Virus record (IMG/VR): IMGVR_UViG_3300033121_001619
Coordinates: 1 to 64,000 of that record
Direction: 5' to 3' (one strand)
Source: a virus
Lineage: Duplodnaviria > Caudoviricetes
DNA: 64,000 nucleotides
Position 1 is the first letter of the stretch, and each line of letters starts with the position of its first letter. The position numbers and the translations under genes were made by a program. Shown here in pieces: positions 1,889-55,078 of the stretch. Below the pieces are notes generated by a model. That model saw only the letters and a list, made by a program, of their open reading frames with translations, was not told the DNA's origin and ran no database searches.

Positions 1889-3046
1889 ATGGATCTCATG
1901 AGAAGAGAATTCTCTTGGGTCCATCTCGTGACTCCCGTCCTGGACGGGGAGTCGCCCTTGGCTGATCCGGGTTCGTGGAAGTTTCGTAACTTCTTCGATG
2001 AACTCAACACCGTCGTCGACTACGTCGACGCGATAGTCTGCACCGCCGGCGTCGTGTCGAAGCATCGTCAGTACTTCGATCGGTCTAGGCTGCGTGACAT
2101 CCAGTACGAGATTCGACGCCGAACTCGTCGATCTCAGTTCGGCGTCGAGAAGGAGACCGTCCTGCAGGTCCTTCCCAATCAGCAGGACGTCGACAATCGC
2201 GTGTGCAACGAGTGGCCGTTCGTCATCGATCCTCGAGACGGTCGCGCTCTAACGAGAAAGCTGGGCCACGAGGACTCTCCTTTCGATCTCGTGTGCTTCC
2301 CTGACGATCGAGTCGATCAGAGACTGATCGACATGTCCGAAGGAACACCGCACGTGGGTGACCGATCGCTCATCCTCGCGTCTCGCAGTGGAGACTTCCC
2401 GTCGCGGAGGCTCTACACACTTCGCGATCCTGTCGCCGTCTGCCACATCGGCGACGACACCCGACGTCCATACTATGACGTGCGTGACTTGCCTGTCGGC
2501 ACGACCTTTCACCTCGATGAGAGAAACGCCCACGAACACGTCTGGTGGCGGGGCACGGTGCGCAACCGAACACTCGGAAGCATCCTGATGTCGGCGCTGT
2601 GTCATCGCGACGAAGAGGGAAATCTCTACGCGTGGCCTCTCGCGAACATGGATCGTTTCAGGCTCGGTGGGTACCAGATGAGGAAGTACTTCCTCGAAGT
2701 CGCCCGAGTGGGTCGACCGGTCGAGTCTTTCGCGGTTAACGAGAAAGACGTCGACACCAAGCGCCTAGACGCCCTCGTCAAAGAGTATCTCTCGACGGAT
2801 GAGGCCCTGAGATGGCTCGTCGAGCTTTACCCAGAGATCGCTCTCCACCAGCGATACTACGAGACCGGTCGCGCGGAGACGATCGAAATAGTTCGTAAGA
2901 TCATACCGGACGACGAGCTTCTTCGTCAGCTCTCCAGACCGACCTGGAAGGTGTTCAAACAGAACCTAGACGTCCTCCTCGACGTGAAGAGAGGTCGAGG
3001 ACGACGTAAATTAGCAAACCCACCAAGACATCGACAGGATTCATGA
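1889..3046 (+). CDS. hypothetical protein, 385 aa (start may be ATG 1898)
   Basis: long ORF preceded by GTGAAT-N18-TATCAT. Confidence 0.75.
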   Translation: MDLMRREFSWVHLVTPVLDGESPLADPGSWKFRNFFDELNTVVDYVDAIVCTAGVVSKHRQYFDRSRLRDIQYEIRRRTRRSQFGVEKETVLQVLPNQQDVDNRVCNEWPFVIDPRDGRALTRKLGHEDSPFDLVCFPDDRVDQRLIDMSEGTPHVGDRSLILASRSGDFPSRRLYTLRDPVAVCHIGDDTRRPYYDVRDLPVGTTFHLDERNAHEHVWWRGTVRNRTLGSILMSALCHRDEEGNLYAWPLANMDRFRLGGYQMRKYFLEVARVGRPVESFAVNEKDVDTKRLDALVKEYLSTDEALRWLVELYPEIALHQRYYETGRAETIEIVRKIIPDDELLRQLSRPTWKVFKQNLDVLLDVKRGRGRRKLANPPRHRQDS

Positions 3047-3519: not shown

Positions 3520-4223
3520 TCACTCGAACCATCACGGTGACGGGAGTCGACGATCGAGTCGACATCGATTGGATGATGTCCCTCTCGCAGAAGTACACAT
3601 GGCTTGAGTGGGGAATCCTGCGGAGTCCCAATCGACGTGGAGTCGCTCGATATCCGAGCGACGATTGGTTCCTACGACTGATCGCAGCTGCGGAGGCGAC
3701 GTCGCCGCGTCTTTCTCTGCATCTGTGCGGTGCACTCTCACGTGATCCTCCGTTCGCCGAGATGCCGAGGGTCTTCCAGCGAGTTCAGCTCAATGGATGG
3801 TCGATGAAGACGTACGACGAACCTGTCCCGTTCATCGGAGAGGGGGTGACGACCATCGTTCCCGTGCGGAACGTCTCCGCAGCACGCATAGTGACCGGTC
3901 GGTCTCCTAGGACGCACGTCTTGATCGATTCTTCCGGAGGACGTGGGAACCGTGCGCTTCTGTTCGACAATATCGATCGTTGTCCTTTGGCACACGTTGA
4001 GAGTCTAGACCTCAGTGAGTACGACCCGTCACCGGGTACGACCATCGGCTTTGCTGGGGGACTTCATCCGTCCGAGACGCGTCGAATGATGAGGATCCTC
4101 AGTCTTCGTCTGAAGAATCACTCGTTCTGGCTCGACATGGAGTCGAAAGCGAGGGACGCAAACGACGTGTTCGACGTCGGGTCCATCGAGGACATGTGCG
4201 AGGAGATCGGAGGCATGATATGA
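3516..4223 (+). CDS. phage phosphoribosylanthranilate-isomerase-like TIM-barrel protein
   Basis: ITVTGVDD, EWGIL, SLHLCG, RVQLN, LIDSSGGRG, GFAGGL and WLDMES motifs. Confidence 0.75.
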   Translation: MITRTITVTGVDDRVDIDWMMSLSQKYTWLEWGILRSPNRRGVARYPSDDWFLRLIAAAEATSPRLSLHLCGALSRDPPFAEMPRVFQRVQLNGWSMKTYDEPVPFIGEGVTTIVPVRNVSAARIVTGRSPRTHVLIDSSGGRGNRALLFDNIDRCPLAHVESLDLSEYDPSPGTTIGFAGGLHPSETRRMMRILSLRLKNHSFWLDMESKARDANDVFDVGSIEDMCEEIGGMI

Positions 4224-11303: not shown

Positions 11304-11722
11304 CGCCAGACGACGTCAAGACGTCAATACGTGATCGTTCGCCTGGTTTGCGCATCGTCCAGAGAGGAGATCGCCTAGTCGTCTTGGGCGACATAGGGGA
11401 GGAGAAGTACGTCATCGATGTCCGACCCTCTGAGAAGATCTTCGTCGTCGAGCAACCTGACGGCAATGAGTACTTCTTCGAGAGAGAAATCGACGCGTAC
11501 GATCACGCGAGGCTCCTCGTGACGAGACACGACATCGAACAAGTGTACATCAAGTACAATGGACATCACAGGATACTGAGATCGATCGTCTGCAAGGGAG
11601 AGATACCTCGACTGACGCCAGACGAGCTGACTGAAAAGGTCGTCAAGTCTCTCTTGGAAGACGACGTCTCCGATGCGATGTTCTACACGTCGATTCTGAA
11701 GATGACCTCGAGGCAGTCGTGA
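11300..11722 (+). CDS. hypothetical protein
   Basis: ATGA/GTGA-coupled ORF. Confidence 0.65.
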   Translation: MTPDDVKTSIRDRSPGLRIVQRGDRLVVLGDIGEEKYVIDVRPSEKIFVVEQPDGNEYFFEREIDAYDHARLLVTRHDIEQVYIKYNGHHRILRSIVCKGEIPRLTPDELTEKVVKSLLEDDVSDAMFYTSILKMTSRQS

Positions 11723-12024
11723 CGACAGTCATCAACATCCGAGCGATCCATGATGTGCCCTACGTCTACATCGGGAGAGGATCGAAGTGGGGGAATCCCT
11801 ACACGCACCTCGACTCTCGCTATGTCGGTACCGTGAAAGTATCGACACGTGAGGAGGCAGTCGAGTCCTACGAGCGCTACGTCAAGTCCCGCCCCGATCT
11901 GATGGAAGCAGCACGCAAGGAATTGCGCGGCAAGGTACTTGGATGTTTCTGCAAACCCAAAGCGTGTCACGGCGACGTTTTGGCGCGAATAGCTGAGGAA
12001 GAAATCGATGGGCGTGATCAGTAA
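11719..12024 (+). CDS. DUF4326 protein
   Basis: VYIGRGSKWGNPY...ELRGKVLGCFCKPKACHGDVL. Confidence 0.9.
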   Translation: MTTVINIRAIHDVPYVYIGRGSKWGNPYTHLDSRYVGTVKVSTREEAVESYERYVKSRPDLMEAARKELRGKVLGCFCKPKACHGDVLARIAEEEIDGRDQ

Positions 12025-13775: not shown

Positions 13776-13804
13776 TTGAAAACTCTGACGAGACGACATA
13801 CAAT
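13776..13804 (+). promoter_or_regulatory. sigma70-type promoter of the Pth2/suppressor-tRNA operon
   Basis: TTGAAA(13776-81)-N17-TACAAT(13799-804); ATG 7 nt downstream implies a leaderless mRNA. Confidence 0.75.
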
Positions 13805-13811
13805 ATGTCAC

Positions 13812-13904
13812 ATGATGTTCTAACTGCCTCGTGGCCCTCCTGGGATATCGTTCGTCTCAAAGCGACGTCACAGGAGTCAATTGTCCATGAAGGAAAGTGA
13901 GTGA
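13812..13904 (+). CDS. leader peptide with in-frame UAA at codon 4: MMF*LPRGPPGISFVSKRRHRSQLSMKESE
   Basis: ATG ATG TTC TAA CTG CCT CGT GGC CCT CCT...; TGA 13902-04 ends 3 nt before the next ATG. Confidence 0.6.
13837..13876 (+). promoter_or_regulatory. leader RNA hairpin overlapping the Pro-Pro codons and sequestering CAGGAG
   Basis: CTCCTG/CAGGAG plus GATATCGTT/AGCGACGTC stem, loop CGTCTCAA. Confidence 0.6.
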
Positions 13905-13907
13905 GTC

Positions 13908-14315
13908 ATGAAGCGCATCTACGAAGAAGATCAGAAAGCAGTCTATGGAGCCTTGCGTGAGAAAGCTCGCAAGAGCCAATTGACGAGGTGGGAACACCTC
14001 TTGTACGCGTTCGTGCGAGGAAAGTCTCGCACTGAGGTGGAATCGCGAGTGTCTCACGCGACGGACGTGTTCACGAACAGATTCATTCAGAGCGCATATC
14101 GATCCACGAAGGCGTCCTGGTACTTCAAAACGTCGCTCGATCCCGTCAAGACCTACATCGACAACAATCGTCTCGCTTTCTGTGAGTGGCTATACGCCAA
14201 GGAAAAACCGCACGTGGTCTTTCCAGTCGAGGGCGCGGCGATCAAACGACGCGAGGAGTATCACAGGCGAAAGATCGAGAAATCGAACCTGAGCGAAAAC
14301 GAGGTCTCGCAATGA
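13908..14315 (+). CDS. hypothetical protein translationally coupled to the Pth2-like gene
   Basis: HLLYAFVRGK..EVE motif; TGA 14313-15 overlaps ATG 14312. Confidence 0.8.
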   Translation: MKRIYEEDQKAVYGALREKARKSQLTRWEHLLYAFVRGKSRTEVESRVSHATDVFTNRFIQSAYRSTKASWYFKTSLDPVKTYIDNNRLAFCEWLYAKEKPHVVFPVEGAAIKRREEYHRRKIEKSNLSENEVSQ

Positions 14316-14629
14316 CCTCGTAAGTAGAGAGGCTGTACGTGGTGATCGACTCTTCGATCGACAGGAGGAATTGGATTCCTCAAGTGGCACACGGTGTCGC
14401 CCAGTATTTCATCGATCATCCCGACGAAGCTCGTCGTTGGCACCAGAATGGAAACACAATCGTGTGCTTGTCGGCGACAGACGGTGATCACTTGCAGGAC
14501 ATCCTATCGAGATCGATTGGGTGCGTCTCGACGTTCAGTGAACCTGACATGGGCGACCGAATGACGGTCGTCGTGCTAGAAGACGTGAACGGAAGGCTCC
14601 TGAGAAAACTCAAGTTGATAACGCCTTGA
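14312..14629 (+). CDS. peptidyl-tRNA hydrolase 2 (Pth2)-like protein with in-frame UAA at codon 4
   Basis: MTS*VERLYVVID...QVAHG...W...TIVCL...FSEPDMGDRMTVV; SD GAGGT 14301-05 and ATGA coupling support start 14312; TAA at 14321-23. Confidence 0.75.
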
Positions 14630-14634
14630 CATAC

Positions 14635-14659
14635 GTCGGACGGGTGTAACTCGTCCGAC
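14635..14659 (+). other. strong hairpin immediately 5' of the tRNA
   Basis: GTCGGACG-GGTGTAACT-CGTCCGAC. Confidence 0.7.
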
Positions 14660-14661
14660 AC

Positions 14662-14733
14662 GTCTCCCTGGTCCAATGGCAGGGCACGCGACTTTAATTC
14701 GCAGTGATGTCGGTTCGAATCCGACGGGAGGCA
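14662..14733 (+). tRNA. ochre suppressor tRNA, anticodon UUA
   Basis: acceptor GTCTCCC/GGGAGGC, D stem GTCC/GGGC, anticodon arm CGCGA-CTTTAAT-TCGCA (TTA at 14694-96), T arm GTCGG-TTCGAAT-CCGAC, discriminator A; CCA not encoded. Confidence 0.9.
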
Positions 14734-14775
14734 CAAGTGATGAAAAGATCGACGTCGCCGTTGTAGGATTGTATC

Positions 14776-15083: not shown

Positions 15084-15518
15084 ATGAAGCACGACTCATC
15101 CGACGCGACGTGGCATGAAGAAAACAACTACGACATCCGCACGGCGCTGTCCGTCCTTCTAGACGCTGTGGAGGATGCTGTAAAAAATGACATGCACGAA
15201 GCTATCGTGTCTTTGACGAAGCTCTTGAAAATCAAGGCCGGTCTTGAGTCCGCCATGCGGCACGGTATTCTCGAACCGTGGAATCTCTACGTTGAATCTG
15301 GTGGTGTGGAAGAAGGAGTCACTACCCTCGCAATTATCCCGTCACACGACTTCCATGGAATCAGGTCTCTCCTGGGACTTAAGGGCGACGAGGCTTTGCC
15401 TCAACCTCATGCGACGTTCGTCGCTGGGACCAGGTCGCACGCGAGGACCATCGCAGAGTACATCGTGCACAAGGAGAACTCATCGTTGCCCGTGAATGAA
15501 ACCGAGGACACGCCATGA
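15084..15518 (+). CDS. hypothetical protein (likely leaderless)
   Basis: ATGACA-N18-TAGGAT, 6 nt before ATG. Confidence 0.65.
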   Translation: MKHDSSDATWHEENNYDIRTALSVLLDAVEDAVKNDMHEAIVSLTKLLKIKAGLESAMRHGILEPWNLYVESGGVEEGVTTLAIIPSHDFHGIRSLLGLKGDEALPQPHATFVAGTRSHARTIAEYIVHKENSSLPVNETEDTP

Positions 15519-15871
15519 GATGTGTCCTGGTCTGCAGTGGCAGGAATTACGACGACGCTGAGTGTGTGAAGTCTCACCTCGATCGACTCCACGCTGACGA
15601 ACCCATCGACGTCTTGATAGAGGGCGGAGCACAAGGAGCTGACGAGCTAGCCCGATGGTGGGCGAGAGACAATGGAATTGAAGTGGAAACTTATGTGGCC
15701 GATTGGCATGGTTTCGGTCGAAGGGCTGGACCGATACGGAATCAGCGAATGATCGATGAAGGTCGACCAACCCTTGTCGTCGCATTTCCAGGAGGAGCTG
15801 GTACGGCTGACATGGTCCGGAGAGCGCGAGAAGCAAACGTGAAAGTCGTCATGGTCGAGGAGGATTCGTAG
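15515..15871 (+). CDS. DUF2493 / YspA-like SLOG family protein
   Basis: VLVCSGRNY, IEGGAQGADELA, AGPIRNQRM, VAFPGGAGTADM. Confidence 0.9.
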   Translation: MRCVLVCSGRNYDDAECVKSHLDRLHADEPIDVLIEGGAQGADELARWWARDNGIEVETYVADWHGFGRRAGPIRNQRMIDEGRPTLVVAFPGGAGTADMVRRAREANVKVVMVEEDS

Positions 15872-28400: not shown

Positions 28401-29372
28401 TCACGTGAGATTCAGACCGGTGGAGTCTCCTCCCCAGGGAATGACGACTTGACCGATCGACATGAATGAATTCGTACCATCGCCCGGGTAACCTTCGCCA
28501 GAGACGACTGACGCACTACCGAACCAGATGTCCTGTAGCGTACCGTGACGTCCTCTGACACCCGTCGTCGTGGAAGCGAATGCTATCGGGAACATGGGCC
28601 ACGTCCCGTCGACCTCATTGGCGATGTTACCGAACGTCACGTCATTGACAGCCATGGCGGTGGTGGTGCCCTCTGACAGGACCTGAAGAGTCGCAGTAGT
28701 TCCGGCGATCTTGGCTCGTCCTAGGGTGGAGAGGTTGCTAGGCGACATCGTAAGACCGGTGGATGAAGCGTATATGAGGCTGAAAGATCCGCTCACCCAC
28801 CCGCTCGTGGAGTTGGTAGGCTTATCGAGGATCCATAGACCGGTCACGCCCCCCGCGGCACACGTTATGACACGCGTGCACTGTCCGTCAGTGCTGACGG
28901 CGACTGAGTAACGATGTTGCGCGTCGCCGCTGTTCGTTCCGAACGACGTGGAGGAGATGAGGGCGATCTCGTCGCCGGCGTACGGTCTATTCGTCAAATT
29001 CCCGCCGGAGAAAGATGCCGAAGGAGAGCAGATGATCGACCAGTTGGGCGTACCGGAGTTCAGGATGTCGAAGCAAATCTCATAGTTGTTTGCAATGCCC
29101 GTTTGCCTGAGGACTATCCACGAGTGAGCAACTCCGGGAGCTCCACCAACGATGTCTGCGTCGGTGACCCACCTGTCGACGCCATCTCCCACGCTTCCCG
29201 TATTGACACCGTTCGACGAATAACGAACGACCCACGGGCTCGACGCCACTCCGCTCAAGGCGTCCTTGATCGTGCGAATGAGTCTCTTTCCATTCGCCAA
29301 GACGGACCCCTGTGCTGCGTTCGTGTTATTCCTGCTGTACTGCCATGTCTTGGATGGTGTGGGTAGCGCCAT
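28401..29372 (-). CDS. putative virion/tail protein
   Basis: S/T/G-rich beta protein in structural module. Confidence 0.7.
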   Translation of the reverse strand: MALPTPSKTWQYSRNNTNAAQGSVLANGKRLIRTIKDALSGVASSPWVVRYSSNGVNTGSVGDGVDRWVTDADIVGGAPGVAHSWIVLRQTGIANNYEICFDILNSGTPNWSIICSPSASFSGGNLTNRPYAGDEIALISSTSFGTNSGDAQHRYSVAVSTDGQCTRVITCAAGGVTGLWILDKPTNSTSGWVSGSFSLIYASSTGLTMSPSNLSTLGRAKIAGTTATLQVLSEGTTTAMAVNDVTFGNIANEVDGTWPMFPIAFASTTTGVRGRHGTLQDIWFGSASVVSGEGYPGDGTNSFMSIGQVVIPWGGDSTGLNLT

Positions 29373-29390: not shown

Positions 29391-31985
29391 TTATAAGGTC
29401 CACTTCAGACTCATGTACCCGGCGTAACACAGGATTTGATCGGTCGATAGTCCACCCGTTCGCTTCAATTGGACCTTGTACGAGTTCGATCCTGTCAAGA
29501 CGTCCGGATCGGCACCTATCGTGAGCGACGACGACAGGATCTCCACGTCGGAGAGACCCGCAGAAGTCCCCGTGATCAGAGAGCTATTGATCTCCACGCC
29601 GCTGTCTTTACTCAAGAGACGTATCGATGCCGTGACTGAAGCCGTCAGTATCTGCAGGGCGACGACGTACGACAATGTCTTAGTCGATCCTGTCAGGTTA
29701 GGCGACTCGTTCCTCGGATCGAAAGGTATGATGCCGATGGTCGTCCACGAATCGCTGGTCGTCGTCTGAAGTCCGGACACTCCGTAGAAGTTTCTCGTCA
29801 TCGGAAGGAGCGTATTCGTGGTCGCCAGTGACGATCCGGACACCGTCAACGAACCTGACACCACGACATCTCCACCGAAGACGGTCTTCCTGGCGCTACT
29901 TCCTGCTAGCCCCACGGTGCCGGACACGAACACGAAGTTGTCAGTCCCCATTTGATAGGACGACGTGATGACGGCGAGGTCGGCGCCAGCGATGACGAAG
30001 TCGCCGGCGAGCTCTAGACCGCCCTGCATCCTGCTCCTGACGGTGGAGTGACCGATGGTGATGTATGACGCTCCCTGGCTGGAAGCTCCGATCTGGATGA
30101 CTCCTGGTGACGATCCGGAGCCGGCGGTGATGGTCACGTTACCATCGGACCCAGTTCCGTGACCGATGCCTGTCCGTATGACGACGTCGCCTCCGGATCC
30201 ATCGGTAAGCTTGCCGTCGCCCGACGTTATGATGACGCTACCTCCGACTTGGCTGTGCGAGCCTGTCGAGTGAGTGCCAGCCGTCACGAGGACGTTCCCG
30301 CCCAACGTCGACGTTTGCTTCACTATCTTGAGATTGCCGGCATTCTCCGACCTGAGGTCGATCGTCGACCCGAGTATCGTGACGTCTCCTCGTGGTCCAA
30401 ACGTGAACGTATTGTTGTTGAAGGATCCGAAACCGGCCTCGATATTGATGTTTCCCGGAGTACCCGCGGCGGCAGTGTCGTTTCTGTCTCCAGCGTTTCC
30501 ACCGTAGATGTTGACGGTACCGCCCGATCCGGCCTTGCCCGCCGAGGCAGCTGACCCGCCAGATCCGGCCGACAACGTCATATCACCGCCGGTGCCTCCG
30601 GCTCCGGCTGTACCCGTCGATGCACTGCCTCCCGATCCAGCAGTCACCGAGACGTATCCGCCGGATCCAGCAGTGCCGTCCTCACAGTCACCACCGTTTG
30701 CTGAGAGGATCTCGACGTATCCGCCGGATCCTCCGTCGGCCACGGATCCCGTGACAGCAACGGAGGATCCTCCTCTAAGTGAGAGACCTCCGCCCGACGC
30801 TCCATAGTCGGTCGGACCAAGATTGATGGTTCCTGTCCCTGGAGACGCCGTCATCCTCAGCTCCGGGCCGGATGAGGACGATGCCAGACCGCGTATCTCC
30901 CTGCCCGTCACGACGAGGACCCCACCGCCGGAAGGAGTCTCTCCCACGGCTGACGCGAAGGGAGGATAGTTCGATCCTATCTTGATCGATCCGCTTGATA
31001 CGACGTCTCCCCCGAAAACTGCCATTCTACCAGAAGAGGAACTGACGTCTCCTACCGTGCCAGAGACGTAGAAGTAGACGTTCGATCCGATCTGATACGA
31101 CGACGTTAGACCAGATAGACCGACGAGAGCCAATGAACCGGTCCCGTATACCGATCCAGCGAGAGAGCTGCCAAAGTAATTCTCGGATCCGCTGCCCCCG
31201 CCGCCCGTCGACGATATTGTGATCTGACCGTTCGACGCGCTAGTGATGGTGACGTTGCTACCGGCGACCATGAACGACGTTCCGTCGGATAGTCTAGTGA
31301 GAGATCCGGAGATGCCCCCGACCGCTGTGATGCTTCCACTGCTCTTCAGTGACCCGCCGAATACCGACGTCGCTCCGGAGGAAGTCGATCCGGACACGAA
31401 GAAGACTACGTCGGTTCCGATCTCGTAGGAGTAACGACCCTCGGGATCGAAGGAGGCCGCGTAATCTGTCTTGGCTCTCTTTGACGGACTGTCCGTCGAC
31501 ACGAAGATGGCGCTTCCTTGACCGAACGTCTTTCTCCACGTGAGAGACGTCGATCCCACCGTGATTGGATCCGACGTGGTGAGGAGGAATCCCCAGCCTC
31601 CGTTCGACGTTCCTGTCTCGACGGCCACGGCGGCCATCGACGATAGCATCCCTTGGACGGCATCGTCCGATCTCGTCATGGAATACGACGACACCAGGCT
31701 GTTCCACACGTAGTCGTAGATGCCATTGTCAATCGACGACGATTGACCAAATAGAAGGACTCTGACCGACTCAGACGTCGAGAGGCTCACTCCGTCGACC
31801 GTGAGAGATACTCCGCCTGACAACGGCACGTGCGTCGTCGAAGCGACTACGACTGAATCCTTCCAGTCGAGCCGAAGTATGTCCTCCGTCGTCGCCACGG
31901 ATCCCATGACTGTCTCGATCCGAGGCGTAGGCCTCGTGTACGAGTAGACCTTGCGGTACCGCTGCGCGTCTCTTGTTCTAGTCAT
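29391..31985 (-). CDS. tail fibre-like protein
   Basis: WKDSVVVAST...VDGV...RVLL..Q..NGIY N-terminal domain; Gly-rich GG.V.I.AG repeats. Confidence 0.75.
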   Translation of the reverse strand: MTRTRDAQRYRKVYSYTRPTPRIETVMGSVATTEDILRLDWKDSVVVASTTHVPLSGGVSLTVDGVSLSTSESVRVLLFGQSSSIDNGIYDYVWNSLVSSYSMTRSDDAVQGMLSSMAAVAVETGTSNGGWGFLLTTSDPITVGSTSLTWRKTFGQGSAIFVSTDSPSKRAKTDYAASFDPEGRYSYEIGTDVVFFVSGSTSSGATSVFGGSLKSSGSITAVGGISGSLTRLSDGTSFMVAGSNVTITSASNGQITISSTGGGGSGSENYFGSSLAGSVYGTGSLALVGLSGLTSSYQIGSNVYFYVSGTVGDVSSSSGRMAVFGGDVVSSGSIKIGSNYPPFASAVGETPSGGGVLVVTGREIRGLASSSSGPELRMTASPGTGTINLGPTDYGASGGGLSLRGGSSVAVTGSVADGGSGGYVEILSANGGDCEDGTAGSGGYVSVTAGSGGSASTGTAGAGGTGGDMTLSAGSGGSAASAGKAGSGGTVNIYGGNAGDRNDTAAAGTPGNINIEAGFGSFNNNTFTFGPRGDVTILGSTIDLRSENAGNLKIVKQTSTLGGNVLVTAGTHSTGSHSQVGGSVIITSGDGKLTDGSGGDVVIRTGIGHGTGSDGNVTITAGSGSSPGVIQIGASSQGASYITIGHSTVRSRMQGGLELAGDFVIAGADLAVITSSYQMGTDNFVFVSGTVGLAGSSARKTVFGGDVVVSGSLTVSGSSLATTNTLLPMTRNFYGVSGLQTTTSDSWTTIGIIPFDPRNESPNLTGSTKTLSYVVALQILTASVTASIRLLSKDSGVEINSSLITGTSAGLSDVEILSSSLTIGADPDVLTGSNSYKVQLKRTGGLSTDQILCYAGYMSLKWTL

Positions 31986-32070
31986 GGATCGATCTATTCC
32001 TCTTGAACGTCCGGATGGACACCGCATCTAAATAGAGGGTGAGGTCACGTCACCTCAGGAGGTATCTAGA

Positions 32071-53378: not shown

Positions 53379-54868
53379 CAGACTGTCCTCACGACAAAAC
53401 GTCCGTCGGTCCTGTAGTCGGCGATGGTCTTCTCTAGCGTCGTGTCCCAATCCCTCACGACGTTGTCGATGTTGTACTCTCTATGGGCACGCTCCATTCC
53501 CTTGCGTCCTAGCTCAGCCCTCTTGTCCGGACCCATCTCGTACATGTCCATGATGGCATGAGCTACGGTCTCGTTACTCACGTTATCCTCGTAGATGTAC
53601 GGCACGCTGTGATTTCCGATGAGCGACTTCACCTCGGGATTCAACCCTATACCGAACTGCTCTCCGGAGACAGGATCTTCGACTTGATGCGTCAAGCCCC
53701 CAGTCTTGAGGGCGATGACCGGACGTCCACACATCAGCGTTTCGAGGATGGGTAGTCCGAATCCCTCAGCGTTGCTCCTGTTGATGGTACAGTCGGCGAT
53801 GTTGTAGAGGACCCTCATGTTCTCGAATTGGATCCTGTCCTTGGAGAAAACGACACTCTCGCGAACACCTATGAGGTCGACTATCCTGTGAAGGTCCGTC
53901 CCCTCTGGGTCCATCGGATCGGTGTGCATCACGAGAGTCGCTTTCGTGTGTCCGTGCTTCTTCTGAAGCTGGTCAATGAACATCTTCCACGACACGATGA
54001 CGTCGGGCGTCATCTTGCGTCGAGCGTTGCGAGAGACGTAAAGACACGTGAAGTGATCGAGACGTTCACGACCCAACAGCTTTTCCTTGATGGACCGCGT
54101 CTCATCAGGGTTCATGGGATAATACAGCTCTTTTGGGACAGCGTGTGGGACGTAGTTCGTCTTCTCGGGGAACTTTTCCTTCAACATGTTGTAGGTCGGC
54201 ATGTTGATGCAGTTCAGTAGATCAGTCGCCTCATAGAAAGGTCGATTGAATTCGGGCCAGGGATAGTTGTCCCATAGATGCCAGTAGACGATCGGACACA
54301 CCTGGTGGATCTCGTCCTCCATCTGCCAGACCCACACGAAGAAGCGAGGGTCGGTGAACAACATCAATGCATCCGGCTGGACTTGGGCTATCGTTTTCCT
54401 GAGGAGGTCCCTGTCACCGAAACCATCGGTGGGTTTTATGATGAAGTCTTCGCTGACGACCTTCGTGTCGTAGTTGTCGTGCTTCATCGCGCCGCCGAAA
54501 CATCTGAATCGATACTTTCCGGTCGCGATCAAGCCGTTGATCAACCAACGTGCTTGCGTCGCGACACCAGAAGTGCTCACTGAGTTGGACTATATCATCA
54601 CCTACGAGAGGTGCTGGGCGCTGTCGGATCATCGCCATGTCGAAGACGAAGGCTGACCGTAGTCTCTGAACCTTCTCCAGGGTTTCCCCACAGGAGCTCG
54701 GCTGCTGATTATCAGCTGGCTAGGATTTTTCGGCCTTCACGTCTACCGTTTCCAGTTGCGTTGTGGCATCCTCGCCCCGACTTCCCAGCAATTCACCCAG
54801 TTTTACATCCGCTGAGCTGTGGTCGTTCACGGATGATCTGAAAGCATCAGTATCGTCTTTTTCCTCAT
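53378..54868 (-). CDS. glycosyltransferase (GT4), two exons: 54868-54829 and 54579-53378
   Basis: spliced N-terminus MRKKTILMLSDHPLSTSGVATQ; RNARRK, EGFGLPILE; 40+1202 nt = 414 codons. Confidence 0.88.
54580..54828 (-). ncRNA. group I self-splicing intron, 249 nt, no internal ORF
   Basis: P AATTGCTGGGAA, Q AATCAGCAGCC, R GTTCAGAGACTA, S GATATAGTCC; 5' exon ends in U, intron ends in G; IGS GCTCA-GCGGATG pairs with both exons. Confidence 0.92.
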
Positions 54869-55078
54869 GTTTTCCCAACCATCCTCTCAAGCGGGAATTC
54901 CACGAACCGGTCCTGTAGTCCGTCTCCCAAATGATATGGACATTATATCCATGGCTGGTCTGCTCGTTAACTCTACTTTCGTCGTAAGCCCATATCTTGC
55001 TAGCGGACATTTTTTGATGTGATGAAAAATGTGTCGGACACTTCGGTGGATTGCAATGCCAATAGTCACCGGTGAAAA
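54866..55078 (-). pseudogene. truncated Vsr/DUF559-like (homing) endonuclease remnant
   Basis: GDYWHCNP...IW.YD..R....GYNVHIIWETD; no credible start; more AT-rich than flanks. Confidence 0.7.

What the first reader, a model, noticed from the sequence alone, without database searches (positions are those of the whole stretch)
14301..14345. Pth2-like gene has an in-frame UAA between its apparent start and its first conserved strand
SD GAGGT and ATGA overlap with the upstream stop mark 14312 as the start. The (K/R)LYVV first beta-strand typical of Pth2 lies after the TAA but begins before the alternative GTG (14339), so the ORF-caller version is N-truncated. Full-length enzyme would need readthrough; otherwise only fMet-Thr-Ser is made, itself a potential source of Pth substrate.
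Basis: partly seen in the sequence, partly recalled or inferred. Interest (0 to 1): 0.85.

Follow-up and report, generated by a model that had tools for sequence, protein, structure and literature searches.

The report
Stop-gated phage Pth2 gene with suppressor tRNA
A wastewater phage puts a UAA stop at codon 4 of a small tRNA-hydrolase-like gene and encodes a UAA-reading tRNA 33 bases downstream, so the enzyme is probably made only when that tRNA overrides the stop; dozens of other phages share this lock-and-key layout, and I found no paper describing it.

Summary
ATG 14312 (GAGG 7 nt upstream, ATGA overlap with the upstream stop) is followed by ACC TCG TAA. Then, in frame, V-E-R-L-Y matches the family N-terminus M-[EDK]-[KR]-L-Y. 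The caller's GTG 14339 lies inside beta-strand 1.

The protein has a Pth2 fold (model pLDDT 95.7; Foldseek TM 0.75-0.79), but the canonical catalytic Lys and the DAG motif are not kept.

A tRNA with anticodon UUA, which reads UAA, lies at 14662-14734.

Across about 100 related phage loci, at least 19 lineages carry ATG, 1-7 codons, a stop, then the domain with no start between. Every one of those stops is TAG, next to tRNA(CUA) wherever a suppressor lies within 3 kb. Here it is TAA with tRNA(UUA).

A second gate heads the same operon at 13812: M-M-F-TAA-L-P-R-G-P-P, an RGPP arrest-type leader. Its stop also tracks the local anticodon: TAG/CUA, TAA/UUA and TGA/UCA.

The genome otherwise uses the standard code for TAA.

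Best reading, at about 0.7: suppressor-tRNA-dependent readthrough gates this cassette. Nothing is experimental.

This scan has already noted the same module on other DNA. I found no published description.

The parts
13776..13804 (+). Sigma-70-like promoter, TTGAAA-N17-TACAAT. The predicted transcript would start about at ATG 13812, giving a leaderless mRNA.
   Evidence: Consensus scan, 10 of 12 matches. Consensus match only; function is inferred.
13812..13904 (+). First gate: mini-ORF ATG ATG TTC TAA (13821-23). It continues in frame as L-P-R-G-P-P (RGPP codons 13830-13841) and runs to TGA 13902-04, 3 nt before ATG 13908.
   Evidence: Sequence. The same M-x(2-7)-STOP-x(0-4)-R-G-P-P leader lies 380-1030 nt upstream of the Pth2-like gene, on the same strand, in about 12 distinct loci. 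Its stop matches the local suppressor anticodon. RGPP is an experimentally shown, context-tolerant arrest motif (PMC12992588).
13836..13876 (+). RNA hairpin pairing the Pro-Pro codons CCUCCUG (13836-42) with CAGGAG (13871-76). The latter is an SD-like sequence 10 nt before AUG 13887.
   Evidence: ViennaRNA MFE -35 kcal/mol, z = -2.47 against shuffles. Its role as an SD-sequestering switch is inferred.
13908..14315 (+). 135-aa partner protein of unknown fold, with the conserved motif R-x3-L-[AL]-Y-A-F-V-R-G-x2-[YR]-x2-[IV]-E. It sits between the RGPP leader and the Pth2-like gene.
   Evidence: Relatives occupy the same position in L108, L017, L080, L014, L021, L028, L032, L047 and L103. There is no Pfam, PHROG, PDB or Foldseek match. 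The AF2 model is all-helical, pLDDT 72.
14301..14304 (+). SD-like GAGG, 7 nt upstream of ATG 14312.
   Evidence: Sequence. SD-like motifs precede 31% of ORFs in this genome against a 13% background.
14312..14323 (+). Pth2 leader ATG ACC TCG TAA (M-T-S-stop). The ATG overlaps the TGA of the upstream gene. The gate codon TAA is at 14321-14323 and is followed by G.
   Evidence: In 27 unique gated leaders of the family the stop is codon 3-8 and the next base is always a purine (A 22, G 5).
14324..14629 (+). Pth2-like domain: 101 codons plus TGA. Read from ATG 14312 the product is 105 aa.
   Evidence: A profile of 31 homologues hits Pth2 structures (2zv3, E 1.7e-8). AF2 pLDDT 95.7. Foldseek hits 2zv3, 1q7s, 3erj, 1wn2 and 1xty at probability 1.0. 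PHROG 3668 'hydrolase', E 6e-8.
14339..14341 (+). GTG used by ORF callers as the start of the 96-aa product. It encodes V10, inside beta-strand 1. GAGAGG (14327-32) upstream is SD-like but also encodes the conserved E-R.
   Evidence: The same mis-call at a Val GTG inside strand 1 is seen in gated homologues L108, L111 and L112.
14635..14659 (+). 8-bp hairpin (GTCGGACG / CGTCCGAC, 9-nt loop) with no T run, ending 2 nt before the tRNA.
   Evidence: Read from the sequence. No terminator was called between the gene and the tRNA. Function unknown.
14662..14734 (+). tRNA with anticodon UUA (14694-14696), cognate to UAA. It has a 7-bp acceptor stem, U33, A37, A73, a C27-A43 mismatch, no long variable arm and no encoded CCA.
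   Evidence: ARAGORN. Rfam tRNA 51.8 bits, E 3e-8. Kept in all 7 related contigs.

Best explanation
The Pth2-like gene starts at ATG 14312 and carries UAA as codon 4. The 105-aa protein, M-T-S-X-V-E-R-L-Y-V-V..., is made only when UAA is decoded by the phage's own tRNA(UUA), encoded 33 nt downstream. Otherwise only fMet-Thr-Ser is made.

The gene is the last protein gene of a small operon (13776-14734) that is gated twice. Its leaderless first ORF, M-M-F-UAA, runs on readthrough into L-P-R-G-P-P, an RGPP arrest motif. A ribosome stalled there should open the hairpin 13836-13876 and free AGGAG for AUG 13887. Translation would then pass by coupling to the 135-aa partner gene (13908) and, through the ATGA overlap, to the Pth2 leader.

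The cassette therefore reports on, and responds to, the activity of the suppressor tRNA.

Shown by computation: the sequence layout, the Pth2 fold, the cognate tRNA, and family-wide conservation and covariation.

Inferred: that the tRNA is charged and suppresses, that RGPP stalls here, that the hairpin acts as a switch, and what the Pth2-like protein hydrolyses.
For: 1. Residues encoded before GTG 14339 (E-R-L-Y) match the family N-terminus. No ATG, GTG or TTG lies between the TAA and R7.
2. Beta-strand 1 spans residues 7-13, and GTG 14339 is V10.
3. tRNA(UUA) is called by two programs and is kept in all related contigs.
4. I clustered 95 IMG/VR loci plus the window at 70% identity, giving 52 clusters. 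Eighteen are TAG-gated: 15 have tRNA(CUA) within 3 kb (one of them also has UUA) and 3 have no suppressor in range. One is TAA-gated with tRNA(UUA), and that is this window. There is no mismatched pair and no TGA-gated Pth2 gene.
5. The closest homologue (P0002 / L108, 40% identical, syntenic through DUF5131) has ...A-TAG-G-K-L-Y-I-[GTG] and tRNA(CUA) 39 nt downstream.
6. The base after the gate stop is a purine in 27 of 27 unique leaders.
7. The RGPP leader's stop also matches the local anticodon: TAG/CUA in about 9 distinct loci, TAA/UUA in the window and in L028, and TGA/UCA in L080.
8. TAA and the leader are invariant in 7 contigs and 4 further runs. The three polymorphisms in the ORF, including 14333 C/T at L8 upstream of the GTG, are all synonymous.
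9. The genome is not TAA-recoded, so the gate is special. Sixteen of 147 ORFs end in TAA, and coding density under code 11 is 0.94.
Against: - There is no experimental evidence at any step. Charging of the tRNA, its amino-acid identity and its efficiency are unknown (one search was inconclusive).
- GAGAGG (14327-32) lies 6 nt before GTG 14339. In 6 of 8 strains codon L8 is TTG, so a shorter protein could be made by re-initiation after the 3-codon ORF.
- UAA is read by both RF1 and RF2, so ochre suppression is usually weak.
- The phage's own TAA-ended genes (16) and TAG-ended genes (27) would suffer readthrough.
- TAA/UUA pairing rests on two lineages in my sample (window and L028), and TGA/UCA on one.
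- In 19 of 27 gated leaders the codon after TAG is ATT or ATA, a rare start codon. Re-initiation is therefore a live alternative for those loci, though not for GTA here.
- The hairpin z-score is modest (-2.47).
Confidence: 0.7

Rival explanations
1. Termination and re-initiation. ATG-ACC-TCG-TAA is a coupling mini-ORF. Ribosomes that end at UAA 14321-23 restart 9-18 nt downstream at TTG/CTG 14333 or GTG 14339/14342. This gives a slightly shortened but working Pth2-like protein, and the tRNA next door is unrelated to this stop.
For: - The SD-like GAGAGG ends 6 nt before GTG 14339.
- TTG stands at 14333 in 6 of 8 strains.
- Gene callers choose GTG 14339.
- Such short upstream frames arise by chance at about 8% of ORFs here.
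- In mycobacteriophages IkeLoa and Myrna, a GTG directly after TAG with a well-spaced SD looks like an ordinary start.
Against: - A GTG 14339 start removes R-L-Y, 3 of the 7 residues of strand 1 and among the best-conserved N-terminal positions.
- GAGAGG also simply encodes the conserved E-R.
- At least 19 lineages have no ATG, GTG or TTG between the stop and the domain.
- It does not explain why the stop type always equals the neighbouring tRNA's cognate codon, at two separate gates.
Confidence: 0.17
2. The gene is a decaying pseudogene that lost its start codon (ATG/GTG changed to GTA at 14324). The upstream ATG and TAA are accidents.
For: The family's Met position is GTA here, which is not a start codon. 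The Pfam PTH2 score of the window protein is below the cut-off (13.4 against 23 bits).
Against: - There is no further lesion in 101 codons.
- All three polymorphisms seen are synonymous.
- The sequence is identical in contigs from at least 11 studies.
- The AF2 model is very confident.
- The same 'defect' recurs in many independent lineages, always with the cognate tRNA.
Confidence: 0.04
3. TAA is a sense codon throughout this phage (a reassigned code), so the codon-4 TAA is ordinary coding sequence.
For: The phage carries a tRNA cognate to UAA. TAA is its rarest stop, at 11%. Termination looks unusual in this genome, given how the TTA codon behaves.
Against: - Code 11 gives 0.94 coding density.
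- Reading TAA through joins almost nothing. The only sizeable merges are 878 aa + 323 aa and one of +98 aa.
- TAA ends well-defined genes such as the DUF4326 gene 11719-12024.
- Published phage recoding concerns TAG and TGA only.
Confidence: 0.04

Closest known systems
Stop-codon-recoded phages with phage-encoded suppressor tRNAs (TAG read as Gln, TGA as Trp; Lak, crAss-like, Jade, Agate; Borges et al., bioRxiv 10.1101/2021.08.26.457843)
   Same: A phage-encoded suppressor tRNA lets in-frame stops in phage genes be translated. The proposed role is timing of gene expression. Lak phages also carry a homologue of this Pth2-like protein.
   Different: Here the genome keeps the standard code for TAA. 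Only two codons in one small operon need the tRNA. The stop is UAA, which that survey does not report as recoded. Neither that paper nor PMC13037316 mentions a Pth2-type gene.
prfB (release factor 2) autoregulation through an early in-frame UGA
   Same: An early in-frame stop inside a translation-factor gene senses the cell's termination or readthrough capacity and sets the output of that gene.
   Different: prfB uses a +1 frameshift and senses RF2. Here the frame is unchanged and the sensed factor would be a dedicated suppressor tRNA encoded in cis. This comparison rests on textbook knowledge and was not tested here.
Peptidyl-tRNA hydrolase 2 (PF01981; PDB 2zv3, 1q7s, 1wn2, 3erj, 1xty)
   Same: Same fold and detectable profile homology. 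Same N-terminal strand position.
   Different: The Lys of the G-K-G-K loop and the D-A-G motif are not conserved. The phage family instead keeps Q, H, W, E-P-D and T invariant. Activity is untested.
RAPP/RGPP regulatory arrest peptides (ApdA, ApdP, ApcA; PMC7897499, PMC10951233, PMC12992588)
   Same: An R-G-P-P motif in a short upstream ORF, followed by a hairpin that could hide the next start site.
   Different: The known examples monitor protein localisation, and ribosomes always reach the motif. Here the motif lies behind a stop codon and would be reached only after suppression.
Lambda bar minigenes and minigene-induced peptidyl-tRNA drop-off (recalled from the literature, not checked here)
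   Same: A 2-3 codon ORF ending in a stop is a known source of peptidyl-tRNA that needs Pth.
   Different: Here the minigene is in frame with, and directly precedes, a Pth-like gene. No link has been tested.

Membership tests
Pth2 (PF01981) | Pfam model score above the gathering cut-off | tested here: not met
   13.4-13.7 bits against a cut-off of 23 for the window protein, and 12.3 bits. Several homologues (P0002, P0012, P0014) do carry PF01981.
Pth2 (PF01981) | Profile homology to solved Pth2 proteins | tested here: met
   The profile of alignment A2 hits 2zv3 at E 1.7e-8, then 1wn2, 1rzw/3erj, 1q7s, 1rlk and 1xty.
Pth2 (PF01981) | Pth2 alpha/beta fold | tested here: met
   AF2 pLDDT 95.7. 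Foldseek probability 1.0, TM 0.73-0.79 to 2zv3, 1q7s, 3erj, 1wn2 and 1xty.
Pth2 (PF01981) | Catalytic residues of canonical Pth2 (Lys of GKGK, Asp of DAG; recalled from the literature) | tested here: not met
   In the profile alignment the Lys column is variable, and D-A-G is replaced by an invariant E-P-D.
Pth2 (PF01981) | Hydrolysis of peptidyl-tRNA | not testable with these tools
   Needs an enzyme assay or pth(ts) complementation.
Ochre suppressor tRNA | Canonical cloverleaf with anticodon 5'-UUA-3', U33 and a purine at position 37 | tested here: met
   ARAGORN drawing. Rfam 51.8 bits.
Ochre suppressor tRNA | Aminoacylation and decoding of UAA in vivo | not testable with these tools
   Identity is unresolved. 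The nearest tRNAs of any class are about 70% identical. A73 and the lack of a long arm fit a Lys-, Gln- or Glu-derived tRNA, but this is inference only.
Suppressor-gated gene (programmed readthrough) | In-frame stop between the start and the conserved domain, with no canonical start before conserved residues | tested here: met
   The first later candidates are CTG/TTG 14333 and GTG 14339, both inside strand 1.
Suppressor-gated gene (programmed readthrough) | Gate codon covaries with the anticodon of the linked tRNA across lineages | tested here: met
   Pth2 gate: 15 TAG/CUA clusters and 1 TAA/UUA cluster, with no mismatch. RGPP gate: TAG/CUA, TAA/UUA twice, TGA/UCA once.
Suppressor-gated gene (programmed readthrough) | Readthrough protein detected | not testable with these tools
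   No proteomic data were available.
RGPP/RAPP arrest leader | R-[AG]-P-P in a short upstream ORF on the same strand as the regulated genes | tested here: met
   RGPP codons at 13830-13841. Of 19 gated-type hits in 101 loci, 16 lie 380-1030 nt upstream on the same strand.
RGPP/RAPP arrest leader | Stalling, and stall-dependent opening of a structure that hides the next start | tested here: inconclusive
   A hairpin is predicted, z = -2.47. Stalling itself cannot be tested here.
Stop-codon-reassigned phage (TAA as sense) | Many genes with in-frame TAA, and low coding density under code 11 | tested here: not met
   Density is 0.94 under code 11. Sixteen ORFs end in TAA.

The most novel reading that the evidence does not exclude
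The cassette (gated RGPP leader, 135-aa partner, gated Pth2-like gene, suppressor tRNA) is a self-contained circuit that measures stop-codon readthrough. It answers with an enzyme that acts on the suppressor tRNA or on the peptidyl-tRNAs its action creates, and so sets the level of readthrough during infection.

In this phage the circuit may be one piece of a wider rewiring of termination. UUA behaves like a terminator or unassigned codon, and the phage's own tmRNA closes its ...ALAA tag with UUA.
Probability: 0.2. Interest if true: 0.92.

Novelty: new variant of a known kind. Interest (0 to 1): 0.8.

Why it matters
Many phages that use the standard genetic code carry "orphan" suppressor tRNAs with no known client codon. 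Here the client is explicit. Two stops in the tRNA's own operon sit in front of an arrest motif and in front of a tRNA-hydrolase-like enzyme, and stop and anticodon change together across phage lineages.

That gives a directly testable natural switch built on nonsense suppression. It is also a rare natural UAA case. And it links suppressor tRNAs to peptidyl-tRNA or ribosome-rescue biology.

It also shows that gene callers systematically truncate this gene family at a Val GTG inside the first strand.

Tried and rejected
- **Related loci:** The search for related loci failed with alignments A2 and A5, which have no conserved 7-10 column stretch. The window protein alone found no IMG/VR relative. 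blastn against the phage collection found nothing.
- **Short contigs:** the contigs of P0005, P0012 and P0014 were too short to be informative.
- **tRNA identity:** overall similarity gave no answer; all classes are about 0.6-0.73 identical. The window tRNA(UUA) and the L108 tRNA(CUA) are not obviously homologous.
- **Other gated genes:** a genome-wide scan for ATG, a short leader and TAA gave only chance-like hits.
- **TAAGTAG:** this 7-mer is shared by the Pth2 gate and the stop of the 878-aa gene. It occurs 4 times where about 2.4 are expected, so no enrichment can be claimed. The search for longer, fused relatives of the 323-aa ORF found none, which is weak evidence.
- **Conserved neighbours:** tblastn at E 1e-3 missed the partner family. 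It appeared only through the motif and position analysis.
- **Partner protein:** no PDB sequence hit and no Foldseek hit.
- **RNA libraries:** they hold the locus only as assembled contigs, so transcription is not shown.
- **Release factor:** no RF-1 domain gene in the 126-kb fragment, which CheckV rates at about 38% complete, so absence is not shown.
- **Code-15 test:** the coding-density test on the 6-kb loci was too noisy to use.

Full report
**What is in the sequence**

The upstream ORF 13908-14315 ends in TGA 14313-15, which overlaps ATG 14312. GAGG (14301-04) lies 7 nt before that ATG. The frame reads ATG ACC TCG TAA (14321-23), then GTA GAG AGG CTG TAC GTG (14339) GTG, and runs open to TGA 14627-29.

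ORF callers, including the public one that produced protein P0001, start at GTG 14339 and give 96 aa.

**Is it more than chance?**

On its own, no. The pattern "ATG, a few codons, stop, a few codons, called start" occurs at 12 of 147 ORFs in this 126-kb genome: 4 each for TGA, TAG and TAA. Homology and context change that picture.

An exhaustive HMMER search found 331 relatives, mostly 100-110 aa. In the alignment they start M-[EDK]-[KR]-L-Y-V-V. The window's codons 14324-14338 encode V-E-R-L-Y, residue for residue against M-E-R-L-Y in P0079 and P0021.

So the family's first residue corresponds to GTA 14324, the codon directly after the TAA. The 96-aa call lacks five homologous residues. No ATG, GTG or TTG lies between the TAA and the conserved Arg.

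**What the protein is**

- The Pfam PTH2 score is sub-threshold: 13.4 against a cut-off of 23 bits.
- A profile of 31 homologues hits solved Pth2 proteins, with 2zv3 at E 1.7e-8 and also 1wn2, 3erj, 1q7s, 1rlk and 1xty.
- An AlphaFold model of the 105-aa readthrough product is very confident, pLDDT 95.7 (TAA read as Q only so that it could be folded). Foldseek returns the same Pth2 structures at probability 1.0, TM 0.73-0.79.
- Beta-strand 1 is residues 7-13 (R-L-Y-V-V-I-D), and GTG 14339 is V10. That start would delete 3 of the 7 strand residues.
- The family is not a canonical Pth2. The Lys of the G-K-G-K loop is variable and D-A-G is replaced by an invariant E-P-D. Its other invariant positions are Q, H, W and T.

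The protein is therefore Pth2-fold. Its substrate is inferred, not known.

**The missing piece: a cognate tRNA**

ARAGORN and Rfam (51.8 bits) both call a tRNA at 14662-14734, 33 nt after the Pth2-like stop, with anticodon UUA. This is an ochre suppressor, cognate to UAA.

It has a normal cloverleaf with U33 and A37, a C-A mismatch at the top of the anticodon stem, A73 and no encoded CCA. It is the only tRNA in the window and one of two in the 126-kb record. All seven near-identical JGI contigs keep it. No terminator is predicted between the gene and the tRNA.

**The genome is not TAA-recoded**

- Code 11 gives 0.94 coding density.
- Stops are TGA 104, TAG 27 and TAA 16.
- Reading TAA through merges almost nothing.

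The record is an IMG/VR virus fragment, rated about 38% complete by CheckV. It has tail, baseplate, ligase and exonuclease genes. It occurs in wastewater, activated-sludge and aquaculture metagenomes from 11 studies.

**The family-wide pattern**

tblastn finds homologues in mycobacteriophages of the Bixzunavirus and Myrnavirus groups, annotated "peptidyl tRNA hydrolase" and embedded in tRNA arrays. In IkeLoa the next feature is a tRNA with anticodon CTA. Lak megaphages also have a homologue.

I fetched 95 IMG/VR loci. Of the first 80, 72 have a tRNA within 3 kb. Most often it is a CUA-anticodon tRNA, or in five loci a UUA one, directly downstream on the same strand, and often it is the only tRNA in 6 kb.

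Many of these genes share the window's architecture. An ATG is followed by 1-7 codons, a stop, 0-8 codons, then [KR]-L-Y-V-V, with no start codon in between.

Clustered at 70% identity, the loci and the window give 52 clusters:

| Pth2 gene | Suppressor tRNA within 3 kb | Clusters |
|---|---|---|
| TAG-gated | CUA | 14 |
| TAG-gated | CUA and UUA | 1 |
| TAG-gated | none | 3 |
| TAA-gated (this window) | UUA | 1 |
| TAG directly upstream, no start found | CUA | 1 |
| TGA directly upstream, no start found | none | 1 |
| ordinary start | CUA | 12 |
| ordinary start | UUA | 4 |
| ordinary start | UCA | 1 |
| ordinary start | none | 14 |

No gated gene sits next to a non-cognate suppressor only.

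In 27 unique gated leaders the stop is codon 3-8, and the base after it is always a purine (A 22, G 5). From my own knowledge of E. coli work, that context favours suppression.

Database proteins that look N-truncated are the same case. P0002, the window protein's closest relative (40% identical), comes from a contig syntenic through DUF5131. It reads ...A-TAG-G-K-L-Y-I-[GTG called as start] and has tRNA(CUA) 39 nt downstream. P0032 and P0106 are likewise TAG-gated.

So a GTG inside strand 1 is simply a Val codon that gene callers seize on.

**A second gate in the same operon**

Two first-stage notes on this genome gave me this lead, and I checked it.

After a sigma-70-like promoter (13776-13804) the sequence reads ATG ATG TTC TAA CTG CCT CGT GGC CCT CCT. 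That is M-M-F-stop-L-P-R-G-P-P, in a frame that ends at TGA 13902, 3 nt before ATG 13908.

I scanned 101 loci for M-x(1-8)-STOP-x(0-6)-R-[AG]-P-P. Sixteen of the 19 hits lie on the gene strand, 380-1030 nt upstream of the Pth2-like gene. The stop is:

- TAG where the local tRNA is CUA (about 9 distinct loci, including L108);
- TAA where it is UUA (the window, and L028/L093: M-T-H-F-L-TAA-M-P-R-G-P-P);
- TGA in L080, which carries two UCA-anticodon tRNAs.

RGPP is the strongest and most context-tolerant of the RAPP-like arrest motifs, and the most avoided tetrapeptide in many bacterial proteomes (PMC12992588).

The Pro-Pro codons (13836-42) pair with CAGGAG (13871-76), which lies 10 nt before AUG 13887. 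The predicted hairpin is -35 kcal/mol, z = -2.47.

Between the leader and the Pth2-like gene, nine other loci carry a relative of the window's 135-aa protein, sharing the motif ...L-A-Y-A-F-V-R-G-x2-Y-x2-I-E.... Its fold and function remain unknown.

**How it most likely works**

Without suppression, ribosomes end after M-M-F and after M-T-S.

When tRNA(UUA) decodes UAA, the first ribosome stalls at RGPP. It opens the hairpin and frees AGGAG for AUG 13887. Translation passes by coupling to the 135-aa gene and, through ATGA, to the Pth2 leader. There a second readthrough yields the 105-aa enzyme.

The layout, the fold, the tRNA and the covariation are shown by computation. Charging, suppression, stalling, the hairpin switch and the enzyme's substrate are all inferred. 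I put the core claim (the full-length protein needs the tRNA) at about 0.7.

**Rivals**

- **Re-initiation at TTG/CTG 14333 or GTG 14339 (0.17).** The SD-like GAGAGG supports it. It explains neither the conserved residues upstream of the GTG nor the covariation of stop and anticodon.
- **Pseudogene (0.04).** It is contradicted by intactness. All three ORF polymorphisms across strains are synonymous, including 14333 C/T at L8. The same "defect" also recurs in many lineages.
- **Genome-wide TAA reassignment (0.04).** It fails the density test.

**Literature and earlier notes**

Five full-text searches and three papers read found suppressor tRNAs in recoded and jumbo phages but no mention of a Pth2-type partner, an early gate codon or UAA.

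This scan's own notes describe the same module in many other genomes. Those notes are unchecked AI leads. One later check priced the bold "self-contained switch" reading at 20 in 100, and that is why my novel case carries 0.2.

**Seen in passing**

The TTA codon is almost absent in frame and clusters at ORF ends. The phage also encodes a tmRNA whose tag ...A-L-A-A is followed by TTA rather than a stop. This suggests that termination as a whole is unusual in this phage-host pair, and it deserves its own follow-up.

Noticed in passing
whole 126-kb genome (window = first 64 kb); for example window 29394-29396 (-), and genome 91678-91680: In ORFs of 150 aa or more, TTA occurs in frame only 20 times in 33,763 codons. 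It occurs 222 times in the other two frames, and TTG (474), CTA (263) and ATA (421) are common. Thirteen of the 20 lie in roughly the last 10% of their ORF, for example at codon 878 of 879, 248 of 249 and 543 of 546. UUA behaves like a terminator or unassigned codon. Other first-stage notes on this genome say the same.
   Followed up: partly
genome 119726-120104 (+), outside the window (L113:1227-1605): The phage encodes a tmRNA (Rfam 64.1 bits, cut-off 47) next to tRNA-Thr(CGT). Its tag frame reads ...D-S-A-P-L-A-L-A-A and is followed by TTA, not a standard stop. The next standard stop is 11 codons later. ARAGORN did not call this tmRNA.
   Followed up: partly
window 29391-29393 (-) and ORFs 29391-32027 / 28401-29372 (-): The 878-aa tail-region ORF ends ...TTA TAA GTA G, the same TAAGTAG context as the Pth2 gate. 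It continues in frame for 6 codons into the next 323-aa ORF, which has its own GAGGA and ATG. Ochre readthrough would give a fusion of about 1208 aa. No fused homologues were found, and the 7-mer is not enriched.
   Followed up: partly
window 54567-54899 (-): Group I intron (Rfam RF00028, 53.3 bits, cut-off 50) at the 5' end of a glycosyltransferase-like gene, 53381-54580.
   Followed up: no
L013, L015, L018, L022, L030, L037, L066, L067, L081, L082 (about 75-230 nt upstream of the match at 3001): A subgroup of Pth2-like genes with ordinary starts and no suppressor tRNA nearby has a tRNA with the unusual anticodon AAT (Ile) directly upstream on the same strand.
   Followed up: no
L108:2617-3294 (+): In the closest relative, the TAG gate is also the stop of the upstream 122-aa partner ORF, in the same frame. 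Readthrough there would fuse the partner and the Pth2-like domain into one protein.
   Followed up: partly
L008 (IkeLoa) about 3974-3982; L009 (Myrna) about 3974-3982: Cultured mycobacteriophages have ATG-TAG-GTG (IkeLoa) or GTG-TAG-GTG (Myrna) at the start of the Pth2-like gene. A start-stop pair sits directly before the annotated GTG start, and in IkeLoa a tRNA(CTA) is the next feature downstream. They could serve as a lab-tractable test bed.
   Followed up: partly
window 15515-15871 (+): The 118-aa ORF has one relative (31% identity) in locus L054, which also carries the Pth2-like gene and two tRNA(CUA) genes. Significance unknown.
   Followed up: no
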